A stretch of DNA of 64,000 nt from Escherichia coli (GCF_030384885.1 NZ_CP128613.1), one strand, 5' to 3'; shown: positions 7,062-42,218, counted from the stretch's first letter. Program-made: numbers and translations. The notes: generated from the sequence alone by a model not told the origin.

Positions 7062-7144
7062 GTAGGCCGGATAAGGCGTTTACGCCGCATCCGACAATCT
7101 TGCACCGGTGCCTGATGCGATGCTGCGCGTCTTATCAGGCCTAC
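7062..7144. repeat. BIME: two inverted REP elements (GCCGGATAAGGCGTTTACGCCGCATCC and GCCTGATGCGATGCTGCGCGTCTTATCAGGC types)
   Basis: Canonical E. coli REP sequences read directly in the lafK/lfiM divergent intergenic region. Confidence 0.7.
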
Positions 7145-16991: not shown

Positions 16992-17570
16992 TTACTTAGC
17001 CATCTCTTTTTCAATTAACTGGATCAGGATATGGATCACTTTAATGTGAATCTCCTGAATGCGGTCGGCATAACCAAAGTGCGGAACGCGAATTTCGATA
17101 TCCGCCGTGCCAGCCATTTTGCCGCCGTCTTTACCGGTCAGGGTGATCACTTTCATCCCCTTCTCACGCGCCGCTGCGATCGCTTTGATCACGTTTGCAG
17201 AGTTACCAGAGGTGGAGATCCCCAGCAGTACATCGCCTTCGCGACCTACCGCTTCAACGTAACGGGAGAAAATATCATTGAAACCGAAATCGTTACCGAC
17301 GCAGGAAATATGACTAACGTCAGAAATGGCAATCGCCGGATAGCCCGGACGGTTTTCACGGTAGCGCCCCGTCAACTCTTCGGCAAAGTGCATGGCGTCG
17401 CAATGGGAACCGCCATTACCGCAGGAAAGCACCTTACCACCGGCTTTAAAGCTATCTGCTAACAGGACCGCCGCGCGCTGAATGGCGTGAATATTGGCGT
17501 CATCTTTTAAAAAGTTAGCCAGCGTTTCCGCCGCTTCGTTCAGTTCGTTACGAATAAGATCCTGGTACAT
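16992..17570 (-). CDS. gmhA: D-sedoheptulose 7-phosphate isomerase
   Basis: ORF 16992..17732 trimmed to [10 protein letters not shown] (192 aa); SIS domain. Confidence 0.9.
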
Positions 17571-17809
17571 GAGGATATCCTTCAGCATAAATGTAATAGA
17601 CAAAATGCAGTGTACCGGATACCGCCAAAAGCGAGAAGTACGGGCAGGTGCGATGACCAGGACTTTTTGACCTGAAGTGCGGATAAAAACAGCAACAATG
17701 TGAGCTTTGTTGTAATTATATTGTAAACACATTGCTAAATATTTTTACATCCACTACAACCATATCATCACAAGTGGTCAGACCTCCTACAAGTAAGGGG
17801 CTTTTCGTT

Positions 17810-20254
17810 ATGATGATTTTGAGTATTCTCGCTACGGTTGTCCTGCTCGGCGCGTTGTTCTATCACCGCGTGAGCTTATTTATCAGCAGTCTGATTTTGC
17901 TCGCCTGGACAGCCGCCCTCGGCGTCGCTGGTCTGTGGTCGGCGTGGGTACTGGTGCCTCTGGCCATTATCCTCGTGCCATTTAACTTTGCGCCTATGCG
18001 TAAGTCGATGATTTCCGCGCCGGTATTTCGTGGATTCCGTAAGGTGATGCCACCGATGTCACGCACTGAAAAAGAAGCGATTGATGCAGGCACTACCTGG
18101 TGGGAAGGCGACTTGTTCCAGGGTAAGCCGGACTGGAAAAAGCTGCATAACTATCCGCAGCCGCGCCTGACCGCAGAAGAGCAAGCGTTTCTCGACGGCC
18201 CGGTAGAAGAAGCCTGCCGGATGGCGAATGATTTCCAGATTACTCATGAGCTGGCTGATTTGCCGCCGGAGCTGTGGGCGTACCTTAAAGAGCATCGCTT
18301 CTTCGCGATGATCATCAAAAAAGAGTACGGCGGGCTGGAGTTCTCGGCTTATGCCCAATCTCGTGTGCTGCAAAAACTCTCCGGCGTGAGCGGGATCCTG
18401 GCGATTACCGTCGGCGTGCCGAACTCATTAGGCCCGGGCGAGCTGCTGCAACATTACGGCACTGACGAGCAGAAAAATCACTATCTGCCGCGTCTGGCGC
18501 GTGGTCAGGAGCTCCCTTGCTTTGCACTGACCAGCCCGGAAGCGGGTTCCGATGCGGGCGCGATTCCGGATACCGGGATTGTCTGCATGGGCGAGTGGCA
18601 GGGCCAGCAGGTGCTGGGGATGCGACTGACCTGGAACAAACGCTACATTACGCTCGCGCCAATTGCTACCGTGCTTGGGCTGGCGTTTAAACTCTCCGAC
18701 CCGGAAAAACTGCTGGGTGGTGCAGAAGATTTAGGCATTACTTGTGCGCTGATCCCGACCACCACGCCAGGCGTGGAAATTGGTCGTCGCCACTTTCCGC
18801 TGAACGTACCGTTCCAGAACGGACCGACGCGCGGCAAAGATGTCTTCGTACCGATCGACTACATTATCGGCGGACCAAAAATGGCCGGGCAAGGCTGGCG
18901 GATGCTGGTGGAGTGTCTCTCCGTGGGCCGCGGCATCACCCTACCTTCCAACTCAACCGGCGGCGTGAAATCGGTAGCGCTGGCAACGGGCGCGTATGCG
19001 CACATTCGCCGTCAGTTCAAAATCTCTATCGGTAAGATGGAAGGGATTGAAGAGCCGCTGGCGCGTATTGCCGGGAACGCTTATGTAATGGATGCTGCGG
19101 CATCGCTGATTACCTACGGCATTATGCTCGGTGAAAAACCTGCCGTGCTGTCGGCTATCGTTAAGTATCACTGTACCCACCGCGGGCAGCAGTCGATTAT
19201 TGATGCGATGGATATCACCGGGGGCAAAGGCATTATGCTCGGGCAAAGCAACTTCCTGGCCCGTGCTTACCAGGGCGCACCGATTGCCATCACCGTTGAA
19301 GGGGCCAACATTCTGACCCGCAGCATGATGATCTTCGGTCAGGGAGCGATTCGTTGCCATCCGTACGTGCTGGAAGAGATGGAAGCGGCGAAGAACAATG
19401 ACGTTAACGCGTTCGATAAACTGCTATTCAAACATATCGGCCACGTCGGCAGTAACAAAGTTCGCAGCTTCTGGCTGGGCCTGACGCGCGGTTTAACCAG
19501 CAGCACACCAACCGGCGATGCCACTAAACGTTATTATCAGCACCTGAACCGCCTGAGTGCCAACCTCGCCCTGCTTTCTGATGTTTCGATGGCGGTGCTG
19601 GGCGGCAGCCTGAAACGTCGCGAACGCATCTCGGCACGTCTGGGGGATATTTTAAGTCAGCTTTACCTCGCCTCTGCCGTTCTGAAGCGTTATGACGACG
19701 AAGGCCGTAATGAAGCCGACCTGCCGCTGGTGCATTGGGGCGTACAGGATGCGCTGTATCAGGCTGAACAGGCAATGGACGATTTACTGCAAAACTTCCC
19801 GAACCGCGTGGTTGCCGGGCTGCTGAATGTGGTGATCTTCCCGACCGGACGCCATTATCTGGCACCGTCTGACAAACTGGATCATAAAGTGGCGAAGATT
19901 TTACAAGTGCCTAACGCCACCCGTTCACGTATTGGTCGCGGTCAGTACCTGACGCCGAGCGAGCATAACCCGGTTGGTTTACTGGAAGAGGCGCTGGTGG
20001 ATGTGATTGCCGCCGATCCGATTCATCAGCGGATCTGTAAAGAGCTGGGTAAAAACCTGCCATTTACCCGTCTGGATGAACTGGCGCACAACGCGCTGGC
20101 AAAGGGGCTGATTGATAAAGATGAAGCCGCTATTCTGGTGAAAGCTGAAGAGAGTCGTCTGCGCAGTATTAACGTTGATGACTTTGAGCCGGAAGAGCTG
20201 GCGACGAAGCCGGTAAAGTTGCCGGAGAAAGTGCGGAAAGTTGAAGCCGCATAA
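17810..20254 (+). CDS. fadE: acyl-CoA dehydrogenase
   Basis: ORF 17732..20254 trimmed to [11 protein letters not shown] (814 aa); N-terminal TM segments plus acyl-CoA dehydrogenase domains. Confidence 0.9.
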
Positions 20255-20262
20255 TTGAATAA

Positions 20263-20286
20263 CGGAGCCGAAAGGCTCCGTTTCAT
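20263..20286 (+). terminator. intrinsic terminator after fadE
   Basis: CGGAGCC-GAAA-GGCTCCG followed by TTTC. Confidence 0.5.
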
Positions 20287-20296
20287 TATCCGCTAA

Positions 20297-20770
20297 TTAT
20301 TTAAAATTAAAGCCATCCGGATGATTTTCCAGGCTGCCGGTCAACGCCGCGAATAGCACCGTTTTACCATCAATCGAAAGCGCATCATTCACATTCAACC
20401 AGGTGAGTTTCTCTTGCGACGTTTTCTCATCAATGGTCGAGAACAGCCCCGTCATCTGATTAGATTTCTCGGACCACATCACAGCGATACGTTGCGAGCC
20501 ACAGTCATGCGGTTTGCACGCGCTCATCACCTGATACGTCTCATCTCCCAACGTTACGGTTTGTGCAGGGGTATAAGTCCCGCCTTTCATCACCCAGGCA
20601 GGCAGCTTATGCCCTTGCACCATCTGATTAAACGCAGCTTTGGTGGTTTCGCCCTTTGCAAGGCTGCTAATGGTTAAATCATCCTGCGCCATTGCACTGG
20701 TGGCGATGACCAGAGCGGCGACTGTTGTTATTGCCTTAAACATCATTCCTCCCGAGCTTATCCTGCCCAT
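20297..20770 (-). CDS. ivy: inhibitor of vertebrate (C-type) lysozyme, periplasmic
   Basis: 157 aa with signal peptide; contains the Ivy loop motif CKPHDC. Confidence 0.85.
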   Translation of the reverse strand: MGRISSGGMMFKAITTVAALVIATSAMAQDDLTISSLAKGETTKAAFNQMVQGHKLPAWVMKGGTYTPAQTVTLGDETYQVMSACKPHDCGSQRIAVMWSEKSNQMTGLFSTIDEKTSQEKLTWLNVNDALSIDGKTVLFAALTGSLENHPDGFNFK

Positions 20771-20923
20771 GTTATTAACCTCCTAAAGCCTGGCGATAAC
20801 ACGATAATTTGCAAATCAGATATTTCCAATATCAGCATTTGTTATCAATTTATTCTGCGCTAAGGCAACTGCCTGATAAGGTGTTAAAGTTATAAAACCC
20901 TTCACATAAAGGAGTTGTACACC

Positions 20924-21694
20924 GTGCCTGGCTTGAAGATTACGCTTTTGCAGCAACCACTGGTGTGGATGGATGGTCCTGCCAACCTGCGCCATTTTGA
21001 TCGTCAACTAGAAGGTATTACCGGGCGCGATGTGATCGTTCTACCGGAGATGTTTACCAGCGGCTTTGCCATGGAAGCGGCAGCTTCGTCGCTAGCACAA
21101 GATGACGTAGTGAACTGGATGACAGCTAAAGCGCAGCAGTGCAATGCGCTGATTGCAGGCAGTGTTGCATTACAAACGGAGTCTGGTTCGGTTAACCGCT
21201 TTTTGCTGGTTGAGCCGGGCGGCACGGTACATTTTTATGATAAGCGTCATCTGTTCCGAATGGCAGATGAGCATCTGCATTATAAAGCGGGCAATGCGCG
21301 AGTGATTGTGGAATGGCGCGGCTGGCGTATTTTGCCGCTGGTGTGCTACGACCTGCGTTTTCCGGTGTGGTCGCGCAATCTCAACGATTATGACCTCGCC
21401 ATCTACGTTGCCAACTGGCCTGCACCGCGCTCTCTGCACTGGCAGGCATTGCTGACGGCCCGCGCGATTGAGAATCAGGCGTATGTGGCGGGATGCAATC
21501 GCGTCGGCAGCGATGGCAACGGCTGCCATTATCGCGGTGACAGCCGGGTGATTAATCCACAGGGCGAGATTATTACTACTGCCGACGCGCATCAGGCAAC
21601 GCGCATTGATGCCGAGTTGTCGATGGCGGTGTTAAGGGAATATAGAGAAAAGTTTCCAGCATGGCGGGATGCGGATGAGTTTAGGTTGTGGTGA
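20924..21694 (+). CDS. yafV: nitrilase-family omega-amidase (2-oxoglutaramate amidase)
   Basis: ORF 20915..21694; GTG start at 20924 preceded by AAAGGAG gives 256 aa; CN-hydrolase fold motifs. Confidence 0.85.
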   Translation: MPGLKITLLQQPLVWMDGPANLRHFDRQLEGITGRDVIVLPEMFTSGFAMEAAASSLAQDDVVNWMTAKAQQCNALIAGSVALQTESGSVNRFLLVEPGGTVHFYDKRHLFRMADEHLHYKAGNARVIVEWRGWRILPLVCYDLRFPVWSRNLNDYDLAIYVANWPAPRSLHWQALLTARAIENQAYVAGCNRVGSDGNGCHYRGDSRVINPQGEIITTADAHQATRIDAELSMAVLREYREKFPAWRDADEFRLW

Positions 21695-21734
21695 GTGGGG
21701 GTTGTGTTTAGGGCCGGGGAGAGTCGGGGTAAGA

Positions 21735-22808
21735 CTACGAAAGCCCGCTCCCAGCAAGGACTGACGCCAGATAGTTTCTGTCCATGGCTGCTTTTCGCAT
21801 CTTACGTCTTAACCCTGCCTTGAATACCTTATCATTCGTTAAAATATTAATAGCGATGTGCCGTATCCCTGAAAATAATTCTGCGGCGTTTCCTCTTCGT
21901 ATTTTGCAGTCGTCTTCATTCATTACCACGTCCAGACGCCAGTGCAGCTTATTCTCCACGTGCCAGTGATTTCGGATCGCTGTGGCGAACTTTTCTGCGG
22001 TTAAATCAGCAGAACTGATATAATATCTGACCGTCATTTCTGGCTCTTTCTTTTGTTCTGCTATTATTGACCGAAAGGAGAATGCCACGCATAATTTCTT
22101 CAGTCCTTTCCATTCAAACGTGAAATCAATAAGTTCATCACGGACATCGCAAACAATATGAAGACGGATTTCTTCTCTGCCGTGACTCTTTTCACTCATT
22201 GCGTAACTGTCATGCTCTGGATTATTTAATTCTTTCAGCGGAAATTTTTCCTCGAAGGCTTTATTTAGCCGCCCCTGGTTTCCTTTTACAGCGAATAAAT
22301 AATCACCTCCCTGTTTTTGTATCTTCTCTGCAATATCTTTCTGGCAACCCATCGCATCAGTTGTGATGATTTTTCCTTTAATATCCAGAATGTTAAGAAG
22401 TTCTGGGATAGCTGTAATCTCATTGGATTTCTCATCCGTCCTGATCTGTCCGATGACCAGACTGTGCATTGTTGAGAATGCACTAATGACATGAATCGCT
22501 CCCCTGCGGCGACTCTTGTCATAAGAATGCCGGAGTGTTTTTCCATCAATTGCGATGACGTCTTTATCATCTGAAGTATGGCAATCTCGCATCCAGTTAA
22601 TAAAGCACTCGTGAAATTTTGAAGGACTGATACAGGATACAACTCTGGCGATGGTATCGTGAACAGGAATACCATTTTCAAAATCACCATATTGTTTTAA
22701 AAAATCGCGATGTGCTTCCCCAAACTCCTCTATATGTTCCCAGCCTTCTGCACCAGAAATAACGGCACAAATAGTCAACAGTAGAATATCCGACAATTTA
22801 TGTTTCAC
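21735..22808 (-). CDS. H-repeat-associated protein (ISAs1-family transposase-like); N-terminus apparently frameshifted
   Basis: 357 aa ORF starting at GTG; an ATG with strong SD (AAGGAG) at 22872 opens a 24-codon ORF ([24 protein letters not shown]) in another frame that stops at the start of the long ORF. Confidence 0.8.
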
Positions 22809-22999
22809 TTTTGCAGGATTGTCTGTAATCGGGAATAACAGAAATATGTTCCATCAATTTTTTAAGTTCCATTCTTTTCTCCTTAATTATGTAAGGAGTA
22901 TTTGATCATGTATAAGCAATAAAAAAACAGCTTCAGGCAATGAGGAATATCTCAATTTTTAAACATAAAATGCGAATTGTTTAGTACAAAAAAGCAGCG

Positions 23000-24889
23000 T
23001 TAAGTGAGTAGGCCACCGGAACCTCCCCGACAGCCTCTCGCAGAACCGTACGTGAAACTCTCGCTTCATACGGCTCCCGTCAGGCAAACGCGCTTCCTGG
23101 TCCTGCTTTCCAGTGGGCAAACAACTCCGGCTTCTCTTTTGACAGCCTTTCCATTAGCTGACACGCCTTCGTCTTTCTATACCGCAGGGTTTTATATTTC
23201 TTTCTCGCCCACGCAATCAGCGTCAGATTAATATATCTGCATACTTTCTTCATCGCTGATTTGTGGTATCTCGCGTAATAATTCAGCCACCCCGATATTA
23301 TCGGATTCAGCCACTTCGCAATATCTTCGAGACTCATCTCCACCCTGCGTCTGATCCACAGTTTCCTGAGTTTTCCAATCATGCCTTTCTGCGCACGGTT
23401 ACTCGCCGCCGGGCTGAAACTCGTAAAGAGGTTTCCCCGCCGGTGGTTACGTGCTCTTCGCGCTCTGAACGTATACCCCAGAAAATCAAACTGCACTGTT
23501 TCATGGTTCGCCTGTCGTTCGCTGTCTTTGCAGTAAACTATTTTCGTTTTCTCCGGATGTAATTCCAGTCCACATTCCTGAAAACGTTTTGCCAGCTTAT
23601 TCAGTAATTCCTCTGCCTGTTGTTTACTGCCACAATGAATTAATCCATCATCTGCATAACGGCACCAGGGAATTTCCGGATAATGTAACGTCAGCCATTT
23701 ATCAAACACATAGTGCAGAAATAAATTCGCCAGTACCGGGCTGATGACTCCACCCTGTGGCGTACCTTTATTTCTTTCCTTCAGTGTTCCATCCGGCATC
23801 TGCACCGGCGCTGTCAGCCACCGGCGAATAGACAGTCTTACCCATTTATCCGCACAATGTTTATCCACTGCCCTGAGTAATAAATCGTGGGGGATATTAT
23901 CGAATAACCCTTTAATATCAAACTCAAGACACCAGTCGTATTGCCAGCAACGTTTTCTGGTGACTGCTATTGCATCCAGCGCTGATTTTCCATGCCGGTA
24001 TCCGTATGAATCATTCAGGAAATAACGCTCCACTAATGGTTCAAACGTTACCAGCACCGTCATCTGCGCTATTCGATCGCTTACTGTCGGTATTCCTAAA
24101 AGTCTTTTGCTGCCATCCTTCTTCGGAATTTCCACCGCACGCACTGGCGGCGGCATCCAGCTTCCCGACGATAACCTGTTCCAGATTTTGTACAGATTTC
24201 CTTTCAGATCCCGCTCAAAATCTTTCAGCGTCTGGTTATCCACTCCGGCAGCTCCGGCATTCGCCTTTATCCGCCGGTACGCTTCCACCACATGCAATTT
24301 ACTGACCTGAAACGGTTTTGTCTGTTCACACACAGCCTCCTCCTGCCTACAGTTGGGCTGTGATGCAGACTGCCCGACGCTGTCCCTTCGCTCCACGTTC
24401 ATTACAAACGCTTCCTCACTACTACGAACAGCTCTGCCCCGGTTTCGCACATCGATACTCTCATACTCATAATTTCGGTTATTTGTATTTCTCTCTTGAC
24501 ATTGCGACGACCGGTTCCCGTAGTTCCTGCAAAGAGCCCGATACAGCGTCATGCCTGCTATACACCGGACATCATTCACGCAGCATTCGGAATTCACCCG
24601 TAAATTAATCCCGGCGGTATCACGAAACCTCCGGTTTTGATGTCACTTAGGACTAACGACGTTTCAACACAGGTTCGGGTTTACTCATCTCACTGTATCT
24701 CACATAGGATCAGATCTCGTCTGATCGTTCCCCCTGCGCTCACTACCATGGCTCTTTACCACAGCAGCCGGGGTTGTTTGGGACCGACTTCCGACAGCAG
24801 ATCCCGGTGGGCCTGCCACCATCTCTTCACAAGCTTATGCTTATTACATGCAAAACGTCCCGTTTTGCATCTTTGTGCCTACGGCACAC
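23000..24889 (-). mobile_element. group II intron (approximate boundaries), carrying an intron-encoded protein
   Basis: Minus strand: candidate 5' end GUGUG at 24889; domain V GAGCCGTATGAAGCGAGAGTTTCACGTACGGTTC at 23078..23041 immediately after the IEP stop; 3' end not precisely mapped. Confidence 0.6.
23080..24402 (-). CDS. group II intron reverse transcriptase/maturase, no endonuclease domain
   Basis: ORF 23080..24597 trimmed to MNVERRD; RT motifs including YADD (CRYADDGLIHC) and a maturase (X) domain; ends without an HNH region. Confidence 0.85.
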   Translation of the reverse strand: MNVERRDSVGQSASQPNCRQEEAVCEQTKPFQVSKLHVVEAYRRIKANAGAAGVDNQTLKDFERDLKGNLYKIWNRLSSGSWMPPPVRAVEIPKKDGSKRLLGIPTVSDRIAQMTVLVTFEPLVERYFLNDSYGYRHGKSALDAIAVTRKRCWQYDWCLEFDIKGLFDNIPHDLLLRAVDKHCADKWVRLSIRRWLTAPVQMPDGTLKERNKGTPQGGVISPVLANLFLHYVFDKWLTLHYPEIPWCRYADDGLIHCGSKQQAEELLNKLAKRFQECGLELHPEKTKIVYCKDSERQANHETVQFDFLGYTFRARRARNHRRGNLFTSFSPAASNRAQKGMIGKLRKLWIRRRVEMSLEDIAKWLNPIISGWLNYYARYHKSAMKKVCRYINLTLIAWARKKYKTLRYRKTKACQLMERLSKEKPELFAHWKAGPGSAFA

Positions 24890-25138
24890 CGTGATCTTTC
24901 CCTAGCATATCGCCCTGACGCGCCGCTGGTTTTACGCTCATGGTATCTCCTTAAATTATTTTGGGCTGTATTCTGGCACCATAGACTCTGATTTATCACC
25001 AATACTCAAAACACCATTAATCAGAAAAATCAGCATCTACATATAATTAATTAGAATAATTCAATAAATTATTTTTCTGCCATTATTGACTTGGCTTTTT
25101 ATTGAATGAAATAAAAGAAAAAATCATCACCTAAAAAT

Positions 25139-25756
25139 TTAGTAGACGTTTCTTGTTACTATATGCGCATCATCAACCAAACGCCCGGAACTATCTGTTT
25201 CCTCATGATCAGATACACACATTTCTGGTGCATATCCTGAAAAATCAGAAGTCGCATTCGGATAATTTGTGACATCTAATCTTAATTTAAAACTATATAT
25301 CTCCCAAAATAATTCAGGAGATCTTTCAGGCAAAAAATCATAAATATCAATAAGTATCTTCATCCCCCTTACACGGAACTCCCTCCTGTGTCCATATAAC
25401 GGATGATCTTTACATCCACCAATGATTTGGGACAGAAAAAATCTTGCTCGTGTTTCTGTTACTCCCCAATTAGCAACAGGTTGAAAAATTTCAGAACCAT
25501 CTTTCACACTAAAAAATTTACATTGGTAAAAGCCTGAAAACGTACCATATTCTCCAATATATTTTTCTGATTCATTATAATCCATGCAAACAAAAACATA
25601 TTCAATATCTCCATTTTTTGCCATAACATCATGGATAATAAATGGATTGTTTTGTGATACAGAGAAAATACTATGTACGTTCTGCACTTCAACATTTAAA
25701 GCCCATATATCACTGGGAAAGAAAATCAAACATATCAAATACAACCAAAATTTCAT
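25139..25756 (-). CDS. putative immunity protein for the upstream Rhs C-terminal toxin
   Basis: 205 aa, low GC, hydrophobic N-terminus; start overlaps the Rhs stop (TAATG); the usual position of rhsI genes. Confidence 0.45.
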   Translation of the reverse strand: MKFWLYLICLIFFPSDIWALNVEVQNVHSIFSVSQNNPFIIHDVMAKNGDIEYVFVCMDYNESEKYIGEYGTFSGFYQCKFFSVKDGSEIFQPVANWGVTETRARFFLSQIIGGCKDHPLYGHRREFRVRGMKILIDIYDFLPERSPELFWEIYSFKLRLDVTNYPNATSDFSGYAPEMCVSDHEETDSSGRLVDDAHIVTRNVY

Positions 25757-26748
25757 TATTGCGTACCACTCGGACAACTCATATCATCAGGTATAGTAAT
25801 TATTACATCTTGAATGCCCATATCCTTCTCTAGCCCTGGTATTTCAAGAATCAACTTTCCGGGATTTTTATCCATTAACTTTTGCTGAGGGTTTATATTA
25901 TTTCTACGCAAAGCCGAATCATCAACGATGTCCCTGACACAACTAAACAGCTGAGTACCATCAGCTTTTAATTTTCCGCTAATAGAATTTATTTTATTTC
26001 TGGCAGATGGTTTATCCCTAAATCCCCATTGAGAAGGGATAATTGCTGTCGAGTCAGTTGTTACTCCGTATTTATCCAAATTTGAAGGACTAGTGTTATA
26101 TCCACCACCTTTCCCAACTAGTCTCGAATTTCCTTGTAATACTCGTGCGCTGCCTATACATTCTTTTAACCCCAAAGGATCTATATACCCCACAGGATCC
26201 AGCGGATACGCATACAGGTTCCAGCCCCCCTTCAGCCCTATCGGATCCTGGGTAATATACCTCCCCTGCAACGGGTCATAGTACCGGTGATGGTTGTAAT
26301 ACAGTCCCGACTCCTCATCATACTGCTGCCCCGGCAGACGGAGTGACTGTTGCAGGTGCAGCGTGCTTTCCTCTCCCAGCAGGTTTCCCCACTCGTCATA
26401 CTCCCCCTGCCACGCCGTTTCCCCTTCCGGGCTGATGAGCGCCTGCGGCAGCCCACGGTGGTCACAGTGGTAAAGATGAAGTTTCCTCTCCGGGATGTAT
26501 TCCGCCTCCATCTGCGCCGCCATCTGTTCCGCCGTCAGCCCGCACTGCGCAAGCCACTGCTGGCTTTCCTCACTCACCGCGCCCGTGCGCAGCTCCCGCT
26601 CCAGCCTTCCCAGCATCACCGCCAGCTCCGCCGGTAGCGTCACCCCCGTGTCCTCCTGCAACATCTCCGCCAGGCTATCCTGCATCGCCGTCTGGCCGGA
26701 AAGCCTGCAACAGCAGCAGGCTACGACACAATGGAATGAAGCACTCAA
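25756..26748 (-). CDS. orphan Rhs fragment: C-terminal part of Rhs core plus variable toxin tip
   Basis: Contains the Rhs core end [52 protein letters not shown] followed by ~139 aa of low-GC unrelated sequence; the large N-terminal Rhs body is absent. Confidence 0.8.
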
Positions 26749-27105: not shown

Positions 27106-27585
27106 ATGGCGAATTTAATTTATTTAACACTAAATGGTGATAATCAAGGGCTCATTTCAAGTGGTTGTTCATCACAACCATCCATTGGAAATAAAGCTCA
27201 AACAGCACACATTGATCAAATTATGATTTATGAATTCATGCATGGATTAAATCGAGATCAAAACGTCAACCATCATCATTTGACAATAAAAAAACCTATA
27301 GATAAAGCATCACCCTTATTAGGCAAAGCAATTTGCGACAATGAATTATTGACATGTGATTTTTCCTTTTATCGTACAAATAAATTTGGAATTAATGAAC
27401 TGTACTATAAAATCAAATTAACTGGAGCAAAGATAAGCGACATTCATGTCTCTATATCACATATTGTTGTTGATAACAGCGTTCAACCCGAAGAGTCAGT
27501 TTCTTTCAGTTATGAGTCAATTATATGGGAGCATTGTTCCGCTGGCACTAGTGCATACAGTTTATGGGAAGATCGTCTTTTTTAA
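27106..27585 (+). CDS. hcp: Hcp-family protein (type VI secretion tube/effector-carrier)
   Basis: 159 aa; Hcp-like pattern LIYLTLNGD..HHHLTIKKPIDKASPLLGKAI..SVSFSYESIIWEH; SD AAAGGAG upstream. Confidence 0.8.
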   Translation: MANLIYLTLNGDNQGLISSGCSSQPSIGNKAQTAHIDQIMIYEFMHGLNRDQNVNHHHLTIKKPIDKASPLLGKAICDNELLTCDFSFYRTNKFGINELYYKIKLTGAKISDIHVSISHIVVDNSVQPEESVSFSYESIIWEHCSAGTSAYSLWEDRLF

Positions 27586-30559: not shown

Positions 30560-30636
30560 TGGCGGAACGGACGGGACTCGAACCCGCGACCCCCTGCGTG
30601 ACAGGCAGGTATTCTAACCGACTGAACTACCGCTCC
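30560..30636 (-). tRNA. aspV: tRNA-Asp (GUC)
   Basis: Exact 77-nt match to the remembered E. coli tRNA-Asp sequence, CCA-encoded. Confidence 0.95.
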
Positions 30637-42035: not shown

Positions 42036-42218
42036 TCACAACCCGAAGATGTTTCTTGCGATTCATCATCGTGTTGCGAAAATTTGAGAGACTCACGAAC
42101 AACTTTCGTTGTTCAGTGTTTCAATTTTCAGCTTGATCCAGATTTTTAAAGAGCAAAACTTCGCAGTGAACCTTTGCAGGTACACTCTGAAGTATTTTTT
42201 ATTTAATCACTACAGAGA

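What the first reader, a model, noticed from the sequence alone, without database searches (positions are those of the whole stretch)
23000..24889. Group II intron with a reverse transcriptase/maturase lacking an endonuclease domain, inserted between the Rhs immunity gene and the H-repeat gene
Seen in sequence: on the minus strand a canonical domain V (GAGCCGTATGAAGCGAGAGTTTCACGTACGGTTC) lies immediately after the stop of a 440-aa ORF with the RT motif YADD and a maturase region but no HNH tail. A plausible 5' end GUGUG lies at 24889, giving about 1.9 kb, a typical bacterial intron length. Just upstream of the putative 5' splice site there is a strong SD plus ATG (AAGGAGATACC-ATG, MSVKPAARQGDMLGKIT) that would be interrupted 17 codons in, so the intron may sit in the 5' end of a small or now-lost gene. 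Group II introns associated with Rhs/H-repeat regions in E. coli are established.
Basis: partly seen in the sequence, partly recalled or inferred. Interest (0 to 1): 0.55.

Follow-up and report, generated by a model that had tools for sequence, protein, structure and literature searches.

The report
Known E. coli group II intron E.c.I9
This is a complete copy of an already catalogued self-splicing mobile intron of E. coli (E.c.I9), sitting in the terminal repeat of a dead insertion sequence next to an Rhs toxin locus; it is real but ordinary.

Summary
A full-length 1887-nt group II intron lies on the minus strand at 24889..23003. Rfam finds domain I (93 bits) and domains V-VI (62.8 bits). The 440-aa ORF carries RVT_1 and GIIM domains, passes the NCBIfam group II RT/maturase cut-off, and has no endonuclease tail.

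The intron is not new. It is 96.4% identical to E.c.I9 of E. coli ATCC 8739, with the same ends and the same length. E.c.I9 is catalogued as bacterial class D (IIB3) and is known to home into the Rhs-associated IS (H-rpt/ISEc1).

The short ORF upstream (MSVKPAARQGDM) is the first 12 codons of an Rhs core gene that was cut off by the H-rpt element. The intron itself sits at the inner edge of that element's 15-bp terminal inverted repeat (TAGGGAAAGATCACG|intron|TAACGC). EBS1 (CGUGAU) pairs perfectly with the repeat's last six bases.

Copies that are 99.8% identical lie in other H-rpt elements, once in the right-hand repeat and once in an element only 90% identical. That argues for recent retrohoming.

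About 47% of complete E. coli genomes carry a piece of this intron, and only 1.5% carry a full copy. Interest is low and the element is already known.

The parts
23003..24889 (-). Complete group II intron, 1887 nt (5' GUGUG ... CUCACU 3'); a copy of E.c.I9, bacterial class D / IIB3
   Evidence: The ends are fixed by comparison with uninterrupted H-rpt left ends. The same junction occurs in 6 other loci. It aligns end to end with NC_010468 2411599-2413485 at 96.4%, which is the database entry for E.c.I9.
24703..24820 (-). Part of ribozyme domain I
   Evidence: Rfam RF01999 group-II-D1D4-2, 93.1 bits against a gathering score of 36, full model 1-118.
24619..24624 (-). EBS1 (CGUGAU, intron positions 266-271), in the loop of a 7-bp stem
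   Evidence: It is a perfect 6-bp complement of the last six exon bases, AUCACG. E.c.I2 has CGUCCAG at the homologous place, which matches its own exon CUGGACG.
24649..24652 (-). Tentative EBS2 (UCCU, intron positions 238-241)
   Evidence: It could pair with AGGG at exon positions -14..-11. It lies in a stretch that differs between E.c.I9 and E.c.I2. This is weak and not established.
23080..24402 (-). Intron-encoded protein gene in domain IV: reverse transcriptase plus maturase (X), no DNA-binding or endonuclease domain; 440 aa from the ATG. The start codon is uncertain; the database lists 405 aa.
   Evidence: Pfam RVT_1 4.9e-42 and GIIM 3.2e-13. TIGR04416 427 bits, cut-off 300. YADD is present. 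The C-terminus reads MERLSKEKPELFAHW. dN/dS against the ATCC 8739 copy is 0.22.
23043..23076 (-). Domain V (34 nt; AGC triad, 2-nt bulge, GAGA tetraloop)
   Evidence: RF00029 alignment and fold.
23006..23039 (-). Domain VI with the bulged branch-point A at 23009, 7 nt from the 3' end
   Evidence: RF00029 alignment. In the fold the single unpaired base on the 3' strand is A at index 74.
24890..24904 (-). 5' exon: the left terminal inverted repeat of the H-rpt/ISEc1 (ISAs1-family) element, TAGGGAAAGATCACG. IBS1 is 24895..24890.
   Evidence: H-rpt copies share CAGGGAAAGAT(C/T)ACG at both ends, and homology between copies starts here.
21725..23002 (-). 3' exon: the rest of the H-rpt element. It holds the transposase pseudogene 22872..21735 (frameshift near 22810-22820) and a degenerate right repeat at 21739..21725. 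The element is 1293 nt without the intron.
   Evidence: NF033564 ISAs1 transposase, 414 bits. The ORF is split. It is annotated as frameshifted in L002. The right end matches the consensus at 12 of 15 positions.
24905..24940 (-). Vestige of an Rhs core gene start (SD plus 12 codons, MSVKPAARQGDM), cut off by the H-rpt insertion. It is not part of the intron.
   Evidence: The Rhs core protein in L002 starts MGGKPAARQGDMT. Homology to the H-rpt begins at 24904.

Best explanation
The region is a full-length and apparently intact copy of the known E. coli group II intron E.c.I9 (bacterial class D, RNA type IIB3). It is a self-splicing ribozyme with a reverse transcriptase/maturase gene in domain IV and no endonuclease domain.

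Location (shown). The intron sits at the inner edge of the 15-bp left terminal inverted repeat of an H-rpt (ISEc1, ISAs1-family) insertion sequence. That element had earlier landed in the start of an Rhs core gene downstream of an Rhs toxin/immunity pair. The host IS is itself dead.

Mechanism (inferred from the family). When the site is transcribed, the maturase helps the RNA splice as a lariat, using A23009 as the branch point. The lariat-protein particle finds other H-rpt ends by pairing EBS1 (CGUGAU) with the repeat's last six bases, and it reverse-splices there. Having no endonuclease, it is then copied into DNA using a nascent strand at a replication fork as primer, as shown for RmInt1.

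Consequence. Because the target is the IS's inverted repeat, each IS offers two sites. The intron leaves the repeat and the transposase ORF intact.
For: Ribozyme and protein:
- Domain I and domains V-VI both score above Rfam gathering scores.
- Domains V and VI fold with the 2-nt bulge, a GNRA loop and a bulged A 7 nt from the 3' end.
- The protein has RVT_1 and GIIM, and scores 427 bits on TIGR04416 against a cut-off of 300.

Identity:
- 96.4% identity over all 1887 nt to NC_010468 2411599-2413485.
- Those are exactly the coordinates and length listed for E.c.I9, class D (PMC3552965 Table S1).
- PMC3522654 says E.c.I9 targets the Rhs IS.

Target site:
- Seven loci show the same junction...AGATCACG|GUGUG...CUCACU|.
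- Both H-rpt ends carry CAGGGAAAGAT(C/T)ACG.
- L012 has a 99.8% identical copy in the right repeat, AGATTACG|intron|AAAGCCC, where the U is tolerated as a G-U pair.
- EBS1 and IBS1 form 6 of 6 pairs. E.c.I2 shows the matching change at the homologous loop.

Recent mobility and selection:
- Between the window and L007 the intron is 99.8% identical, but the host H-rpt is only 89.8% identical.
- IEP dN/dS is 0.22.
- The intron runs in the same direction as the rrnH operon in the window. Its sense strand is therefore the lagging-strand template, which is the orientation RmInt1-type introns prefer (PMC8914252 abstract).
Against: - No experiment shows that this copy splices or moves.
- No promoter-like site was found on the minus strand between the immunity gene and the intron. 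The scan found 5 sites in the region against 3.8 expected, so transcription would depend on read-through.
- EBS2 and EBS3 could not be assigned with confidence.
- The class D C-terminal motif is only partly matched: M and S stand where the consensus has L and A.
- The intron ends in CU rather than the usual AY.
- Class D placement rests on identity to a catalogued member, not on a phylogeny made here.
Confidence: 0.93

Rival explanations
1. It is E.c.I9, but an inert relic. The copy is carried vertically in a dead IS, is not transcribed or not spliced, and is no longer mobile.
For: - The host H-rpt has a frameshifted transposase and a degenerate right repeat.
- No promoter-like site lies upstream on the intron strand.
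- Most E. coli genomes hold only fossils: 2565 genomes have a piece and 83 have a full copy. This fits the extinction dynamics described in PMC3522654.
Against: - The ORF is intact and dN/dS is 0.22.
- The EBS1-IBS1 match is perfect.
- The conserved Pro of the class D motif is kept, unlike in the ATCC 8739 copy.
- Copies 99.8% identical sit in at least three different H-rpt contexts, one of them in the right repeat and one in an H-rpt only 90% identical.
Confidence: 0.25
2. The intron did not home here by itself. It was carried in passively when an intron-bearing H-rpt element transposed or recombined into this locus.
For: - The terminal repeat outside the intron is complete, so an IS-plus-intron composite could in principle still be moved by the transposase.
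- BL21(DE3) has an H-rpt with a 159-nt intron fossil at the same yafV locus, so the association at this site is old.
Against: - Between loci the intron is much more similar (99.8%) than the H-rpt that carries it (89.8%).
- The copy in L012 is in the opposite end of the IS. That cannot arise by moving the same composite.
Confidence: 0.15
3. The RT belongs to a retron, a defence RT (Drt) or a free-standing group II intron-like RT, and the ribozyme-like pieces are coincidental.
For: There are weak partial matches to the Drt3a, Drt2 and retron St85 models and to retron-type RT structures. These are expected from shared RT folds.
Against: - All of those matches are far below their curated cut-offs (78 against 200, 60 against 390, 55 against 235), while TIGR04416 passes.
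- Domains I, V and VI flank the ORF at the right places.
- Exact exon junctions are seen against empty sites.
Confidence: 0.01

Closest known systems
E.c.I9 (E. coli ATCC 8739, CP000946 2411599-2413485; Zimmerly group II intron database; class D)
   Same: - Same length (1887 nt) and the same first and last bases.
- Same insertion point in the H-rpt terminal repeat.
- 96.4% nucleotide identity. This is above the database's 95% rule for giving two introns the same name (PMC3552965).
- Same 440-aa ORF frame.
   Different: - There are 67 substitutions.
- Four of them cluster in or beside EBS1. The window has CGUGAU, which matches its exon. The reference has GAUGAU, which mismatches its own exon at -1 and -2 but fits the H-rpt subtype ...ATCATC|.
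- The window keeps the Pro of the PxLFAHW motif, where the reference has Leu.
- The chromosomal locus differs: next to yafV here, next to ydcC/pptA in ATCC 8739. At the yafV locus only a 159-nt fossil (E.c.I9-tr2, in B strains) had been reported.
E.c.I2 (X77508 518-2408; class D; inside the ISEc1/H-rpt transposase ORF of Rhs elements)
   Same: - Same host IS family, same intron class and no endonuclease domain.
- Domain I aligns throughout (86% mean column identity over the first ~510 nt); megablast aligns 68% of the 2-kb query at 72% identity.
- EBS1 lies in the homologous loop.
   Different: - The homing site differs: it lies inside the transposase coding sequence (RLDV|VMNEDD), not in the terminal repeat.
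- EBS1 is CGUCCAG.
- It is 1891 nt long with a 416-aa ORF.
RmInt1 and RmInt2 of Sinorhizobium meliloti (class D archetypes)
   Same: - RT-X protein without D/En domains.
- IIB-type ribozyme.
- Homing into insertion sequences.
- RmInt2 specifically targets the inverted repeats of ISRm17, giving two sites per IS on opposite strands (PMC4615759). E.c.I9 shows the same arrangement with H-rpt.
- The C-terminal PxLF[V/A]HW core is present.
   Different: - Different host phylum branch and a different IS family.
- E.c.I9 has never been tested experimentally, as far as the searched literature shows. Only one paper in the library names it.
- The first two fixed residues of the class D motif are M and S instead of L and A.

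Membership tests
Group II intron (ribozyme plus intron-encoded protein) | Domain V: ~34-nt hairpin with an AGC catalytic triad, a 2-nt bulge and a GNRA loop | tested here: met
   23076..23043. RF00029 62.8 bits (gathering score 40). The fold shows a 15-pair stem, a 2-nt bulge and a GAGA loop.
Group II intron (ribozyme plus intron-encoded protein) | Domain VI with a bulged branch-point adenosine 7-8 nt from the 3' splice site | tested here: met
   A at 23009 is the only unpaired base on the 3' strand of the helix. It is 7 nt from the 3' end at 23003.
Group II intron (ribozyme plus intron-encoded protein) | 5' end GUGYG and a recognisable domain I | tested here: met
   GUGUG at 24889..24885. RF01999 93.1 bits at 24820..24703.
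Group II intron (ribozyme plus intron-encoded protein) | EBS1 in domain I complementary to the last bases of the 5' exon | tested here: met
   CGUGAU (266-271) pairs with AUCACG, 6 of 6 Watson-Crick pairs. E.c.I2 has a matching change at the homologous loop.
Group II intron (ribozyme plus intron-encoded protein) | EBS2-IBS2 and EBS3-IBS3 pairings | tested here: inconclusive
   There is only a 4-bp candidate (UCCU with AGGG), and no unique EBS3 was found.
Group II intron (ribozyme plus intron-encoded protein) | ORF in domain IV with RT and maturase (X) domains | tested here: met
   RVT_1 4.9e-42 and GIIM 3.2e-13. TIGR04416 427 bits against a cut-off of 300.
Group II intron (ribozyme plus intron-encoded protein) | Precise insertion relative to an empty allele of the target | tested here: met
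   Empty H-rpt ends read GATCACGTAACGC (L003, L004, L011). The occupied site reads GATCACG[1887 nt]TAACGC.
Group II intron (ribozyme plus intron-encoded protein) | Self-splicing through a lariat; retrohoming | not testable with these tools
   This needs RT-PCR or primer extension and a mobility assay.
Bacterial class D (IIB3) group II introns | IEP ends after domain X with a short extension and has no D/En (HNH) domain | tested here: met
   GIIM ends at residue 411 of 441 in the query as submitted (which began one codon before the ATG). There is no HNH or other domain hit.
Bacterial class D (IIB3) group II introns | C-terminal class D motif LX3AX3PXLF[V/A]HW (PMC4615759) | tested here: inconclusive
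   The window has M-ERL-S-KEK-P-E-LFAHW. The PxLFAHW core is exact. The first two fixed positions are M and S instead of L and A.
Bacterial class D (IIB3) group II introns | Phylogenetic placement of the IEP within the class D clade | not tested
   This rests on 96.4% identity to E.c.I9, which is listed among the class D introns (entry D176) in PMC3552965 Table S1 and as class D in PMC3522654 Table S2.
E.c.I9 (named intron) | More than 95% nucleotide identity over the full length to the reference, with the same boundaries | tested here: met
   1887 of 1887 nt aligned, 67 mismatches, no gaps. The reference coordinates match.
E.c.I9 (named intron) | Homing site in the Rhs-associated IS (H-rpt/ISEc1), at a position other than that of E.c.I2 | tested here: met
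   The junction is at the inner edge of the 15-bp terminal repeat in all 7 full-length copies examined. See also PMC3522654.
Retron or defence-type reverse transcriptases | Score above the curated cut-off of a retron or Drt model; an adjacent msr/msd-type non-coding RNA instead of ribozyme domains | tested here: not met
   Retron St85 scores 54.6 against 235, Drt3a 78 against 200 and Drt2 60 against 390. The flanks are group II domains I, V and VI.

The most novel reading that the evidence does not exclude
The window carries the currently active lineage of E.c.I9, distinct from the database reference.

- This lineage's EBS1 (CGUGAU) is tuned to the ...ATCACG form of the H-rpt terminal inverted repeat.
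- The ATCC 8739 lineage carries GAUGAU, which fits the ...ATCATC form.
- On this reading there are two specificity variants of one intron, co-evolving with two subtypes of the same IS. Both use the IS's inverted repeats, so each IS offers two sites.
- This would also be the first full-length copy described at the yafV-side Rhs locus, where only a 159-nt fossil was known.
Probability: 0.4. Interest if true: 0.25.

Novelty: already known. Interest (0 to 1): 0.1.

Why it matters
It matters little for discovery. The intron type, its class, its association with Rhs/H-rpt elements and the existence of its fossils are all published (PMC3522654, PMC3552965), and NCBI's annotation already calls the ORF a group II intron RT/maturase.

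What this work adds is bookkeeping:
- Exact boundaries in this window.
- The intron's target is the IS's terminal inverted repeat, at either end, as for RmInt2 with ISRm17.
- The upstream mini-ORF is an Rhs start vestige.
- This variant looks better matched to its target than the reference copy.

It could serve as a natural E. coli class D intron for retrohoming studies, but nothing here changes current understanding.

Tried and rejected
- Thermodynamic folding of the 5' 485 nt gave a weak signal (z = -1.87) and a structure that does not resemble a group II domain I. I did not use it to draw domains I to III.
- A search for EBS2 by complementarity found no 6-bp or longer partner other than EBS1 and one chance hit inside the ORF. 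The 4-bp candidate is reported as tentative only.
- The promoter and terminator scan of 22750..25250 found no more sites than shuffled sequence, and none upstream of the intron on its strand. The transcription source therefore stays open.
- I first took the two-piece BLAST matches in about 40% of genomes for intron-less alleles. They turned out to be 5' intron fossils followed by a fresh H-rpt end.
- I first mapped the Rhs core start from the L002 coordinates and got a non-start sequence. The window diverges from L002 above 26677, so I compared with the Rhs start in L002 itself.
- The upstream 251 nt occur in only one of the 5426 genomes, so no empty allele of this exact locus was available. 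Empty sites from other H-rpt copies and from BL21(DE3) were used instead.
- The retron, Drt and G2L reading was rejected on model cut-offs and on the presence of the ribozyme.
- No structure prediction or large protein database search was run, because the identity was settled by DNA comparison and the literature.

Full report
**1. What is in the sequence**

On the minus strand, Rfam at gathering thresholds finds two group II intron pieces. One is a domain I segment (RF01999, 24820..24703, 93.1 bits). The other is domains V-VI (RF00029, 23078..23003, 62.8 bits).

Between them lies an ORF, 24402..23080, of 440 aa from the ATG. It contains YADD. It matches Pfam RVT_1 (4.9e-42) and the group II maturase domain GIIM (3.2e-13), and nothing resembling an HNH endonuclease follows. 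It scores 427 bits on NCBIfam TIGR04416, 'group II intron reverse transcriptase/maturase', whose cut-off is 300. Retron and Drt models stay far below their cut-offs.

Domain V (23076..23043) folds as a 34-nt hairpin with the AGC triad, a 2-nt bulge and a GAGA loop. Domain VI (23039..23006) has a single bulged A at 23009, 7 nt from the 3' end. Only the 3' coordinate needs a 3-nt correction.

**2. Exact boundaries and the real host site**

The window is E. coli. The nearest complete genome is strain 2013C-4282, which is collinear with window 17000..26677 at 99.96%.

Uninterrupted copies of the Rhs-associated H-rpt element (ISEc1, ISAs1 family) begin ...CAGGGAAAGATCACGTAACGCTGC... (L003, L004, L011). 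The window reads TAGGGAAAGATCACG[GTGTG....CTCACT]TAACGCTGC. That fixes the intron unambiguously as 24889..23003, 1887 nt.

Comparing both ends of several H-rpt copies shows that the element carries 15-bp terminal inverted repeats, CAGGGAAAGAT(C/T)ACG. The intron therefore sits exactly at the inner edge of the left repeat, inside the IS and upstream of the transposase gene. With the intron removed, the element spans 24904..21725 and is 1293 nt long.

Its first 12 codons, MSVKPAARQGDM, are the start of an Rhs core protein; the Rhs core in L002 begins MGGKPAARQGDMT. The remaining codons are read from the IS repeat and from the intron. The history is therefore layered: an H-rpt landed in an Rhs gene start, and the intron landed in the H-rpt.

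The H-rpt itself is dead. Its transposase is frameshifted and its right repeat matches the consensus at only 12 of 15 positions.

**3. Identity**

The intron aligns end to end, without gaps, with NC_010468 (E. coli ATCC 8739) 2411599..2413485 at 96.4% identity. Those exact coordinates and the same 1887-nt length are listed for E.c.I9, with an RT-X ORF, in the class D table of Toro and Martinez-Abarca 2013 (PMC3552965 Table S1).

Leclercq and Cordaux 2012 (PMC3522654) also list E.c.I9 as class D. They describe it as lying 'in a Rhs region' and say that it targets the Rhs IS at a position different from that of E.c.I2. They report 193-bp and 159-bp fossils in other strains.

The database convention gives the same name to introns that are more than 95% identical. 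This is therefore E.c.I9. The related intron found at 72% identity inside an ISAs1 transposase ORF (L005, 1891 nt) matches E.c.I2.

**4. How it recognises its site**

Intron positions 266-271 (window 24624..24619) read CGUGAU. This is a perfect complement of the last six exon bases, AUCACG. It lies in the loop of a 7-bp stem. At the homologous loop E.c.I2 has CGUCCAG, which matches its own exon CUGGACG. This is the expected EBS1-IBS1 pairing, and it is supported by a change on both partners.

EBS2 and EBS3 could not be assigned firmly.

The C-terminus of the protein (MERLSKEKPELFAHW) carries the PxLF[V/A]HW core of the class D motif LX3AX3PXLF[V/A]HW, with M and S at the first two fixed positions.

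**5. Evidence that this lineage has moved recently**

All seven full-length copies examined share the same 5' junction, and the DNA outside the repeat differs among their loci. The loci seen are:
- the yafV side (the window and L002);
- the ydcC/pptA (RhsE) side (L006, L009, L010);
- a vgrG/PAAR cluster (L007, L008);
- the nfrA side (L012).

In L012 the intron sits in the right repeat, antisense to the transposase: CAGGGAAAGATTACG|intron|AAAGCCCGC. The T pairs as G-U with EBS1.

Between the window and L007 the introns differ at 4 of 1887 positions, while the host H-rpt sequences are only 89.8% identical. That pattern fits retrohoming and does not fit passive carriage.

dN/dS of the protein gene between the window type and the ATCC type is 0.22.

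Targeting an IS's inverted repeats, which gives two sites per IS on opposite strands, is documented for the class D intron RmInt2 in ISRm17 (PMC4615759).

The intron runs in the same direction as the rrnH operon in the window. Its sense strand is therefore the lagging-strand template, which is the orientation favoured by endonuclease-less class D introns. This is consistent with that mechanism but is not a test of it.

**6. Population picture**

Of 5426 complete E. coli genomes, 2565 hold some piece of this intron and only 83 hold at least 80% of it.

Four kinds of fossil were seen:
- 159 nt at the yafV locus of BL21(DE3), the same locus as the window;
- 193 nt at ydcC;
- 460 nt on the nfrA side;
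- 757 nt between gnd and ugd.

Every one keeps the intron's 5' end and stops exactly at a complete H-rpt left repeat. The simplest reading is inferred, not tested: a second H-rpt inserted into the intron, and recombination between the two H-rpt bodies then removed the intron's 3' part.

**7. Differences from the reference copy**

Four of the 67 substitutions cluster at EBS1. The ATCC 8739 copy has GAUGAU. This mismatches its own exon at -1 and -2 but would fit the H-rpt subtype that ends ...ATCATC.

The reference also has Leu in place of the conserved Pro of the class D motif.

The window-type EBS1 region occurs at 99 places in 90 genomes, and the ATCC type occurs in 43 genomes.

The window type may therefore be the fitter lineage, possibly a specificity variant. 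This is the only mildly new point, and it has not been tested.

**8. Verdict**

This is a real, complete and probably functional group II intron, and it is a known one. Novelty: already known. Interest: low.

Noticed in passing
L011:3993-4190 (BL21(DE3)), L001:3001-3240, L013/L014:2248-2750, L015/L016:2248-3040: Four independent E.c.I9 fossils (159, 193, 460 and 757 nt) all keep the intron 5' end and stop exactly at a complete H-rpt left inverted repeat. This suggests repeated H-rpt insertion into the intron, followed by recombination that deletes the intron's 3' part.
   Followed up: partly
L006:3263-3271 and L006 ltrA codon 425 (ATCC 8739 reference E.c.I9): The reference copy's EBS1 is GAUGAU, which is mismatched at -1 and -2 to its own exon AUCACG. 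Its IEP has Leu instead of the conserved Pro of the class D PxLFAHW motif. The window copy has the matched EBS1 and the Pro.
   Followed up: partly
window 21725-22872 (-): The host H-rpt/ISEc1 element is defunct. The transposase reading frame is broken near 22810-22820, and the right inverted repeat (21739..21725) matches the consensus at only 12 of 15 positions. BL21(DE3) shows a similarly degenerate right end at this locus.
   Followed up: partly
window 25756-26748 (-) and 26677 upward: Only a 330-aa C-terminal piece of an Rhs core protein remains. The window is collinear with strain 2013C-4282 up to 26677 and then diverges inside the Rhs core, where that strain has a full Rhs gene preceded by vgrG. 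In the window the neighbouring DNA carries a plus-strand Hcp/TssD gene (27106..27585).
   Followed up: partly
window 24890-25140 (-): The 251 nt between the putative immunity gene and the intron, including the Rhs start vestige, occur in only 1 of 5426 complete E. coli genomes. This particular Rhs-tail arrangement is therefore rare.
   Followed up: no
L008:2890-3000 (strain 82.0312; also H37, strain 82.0311): A second intron 5' end (GTGTGCCGTAGGCAC) lies 111 nt upstream of the full-length copy. It may be a partial head-to-tail duplication, of the kind reported for RmInt2.
   Followed up: no
L012:2982-6925 (strain 2013C-4282, nfrA-side Rhs locus): A full-length copy 99.8% identical to the window intron lies in the right inverted repeat of an H-rpt that itself interrupts another, inverted H-rpt. 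This is a nested arrangement of mobile elements.
   Followed up: partly
window 7065-7141 (+); 42043-42151 (-); 30560-30636 (-): Three other RNA features were seen: an Rfam naRNA4 (CssrE) match; a StyR-44 match at 42043-42151, just upstream of the 23S gene in the rrn operon; and tRNA-Asp (aspV), which borders the T6SS/Rhs island. All are ordinary E. coli features.
   Followed up: no
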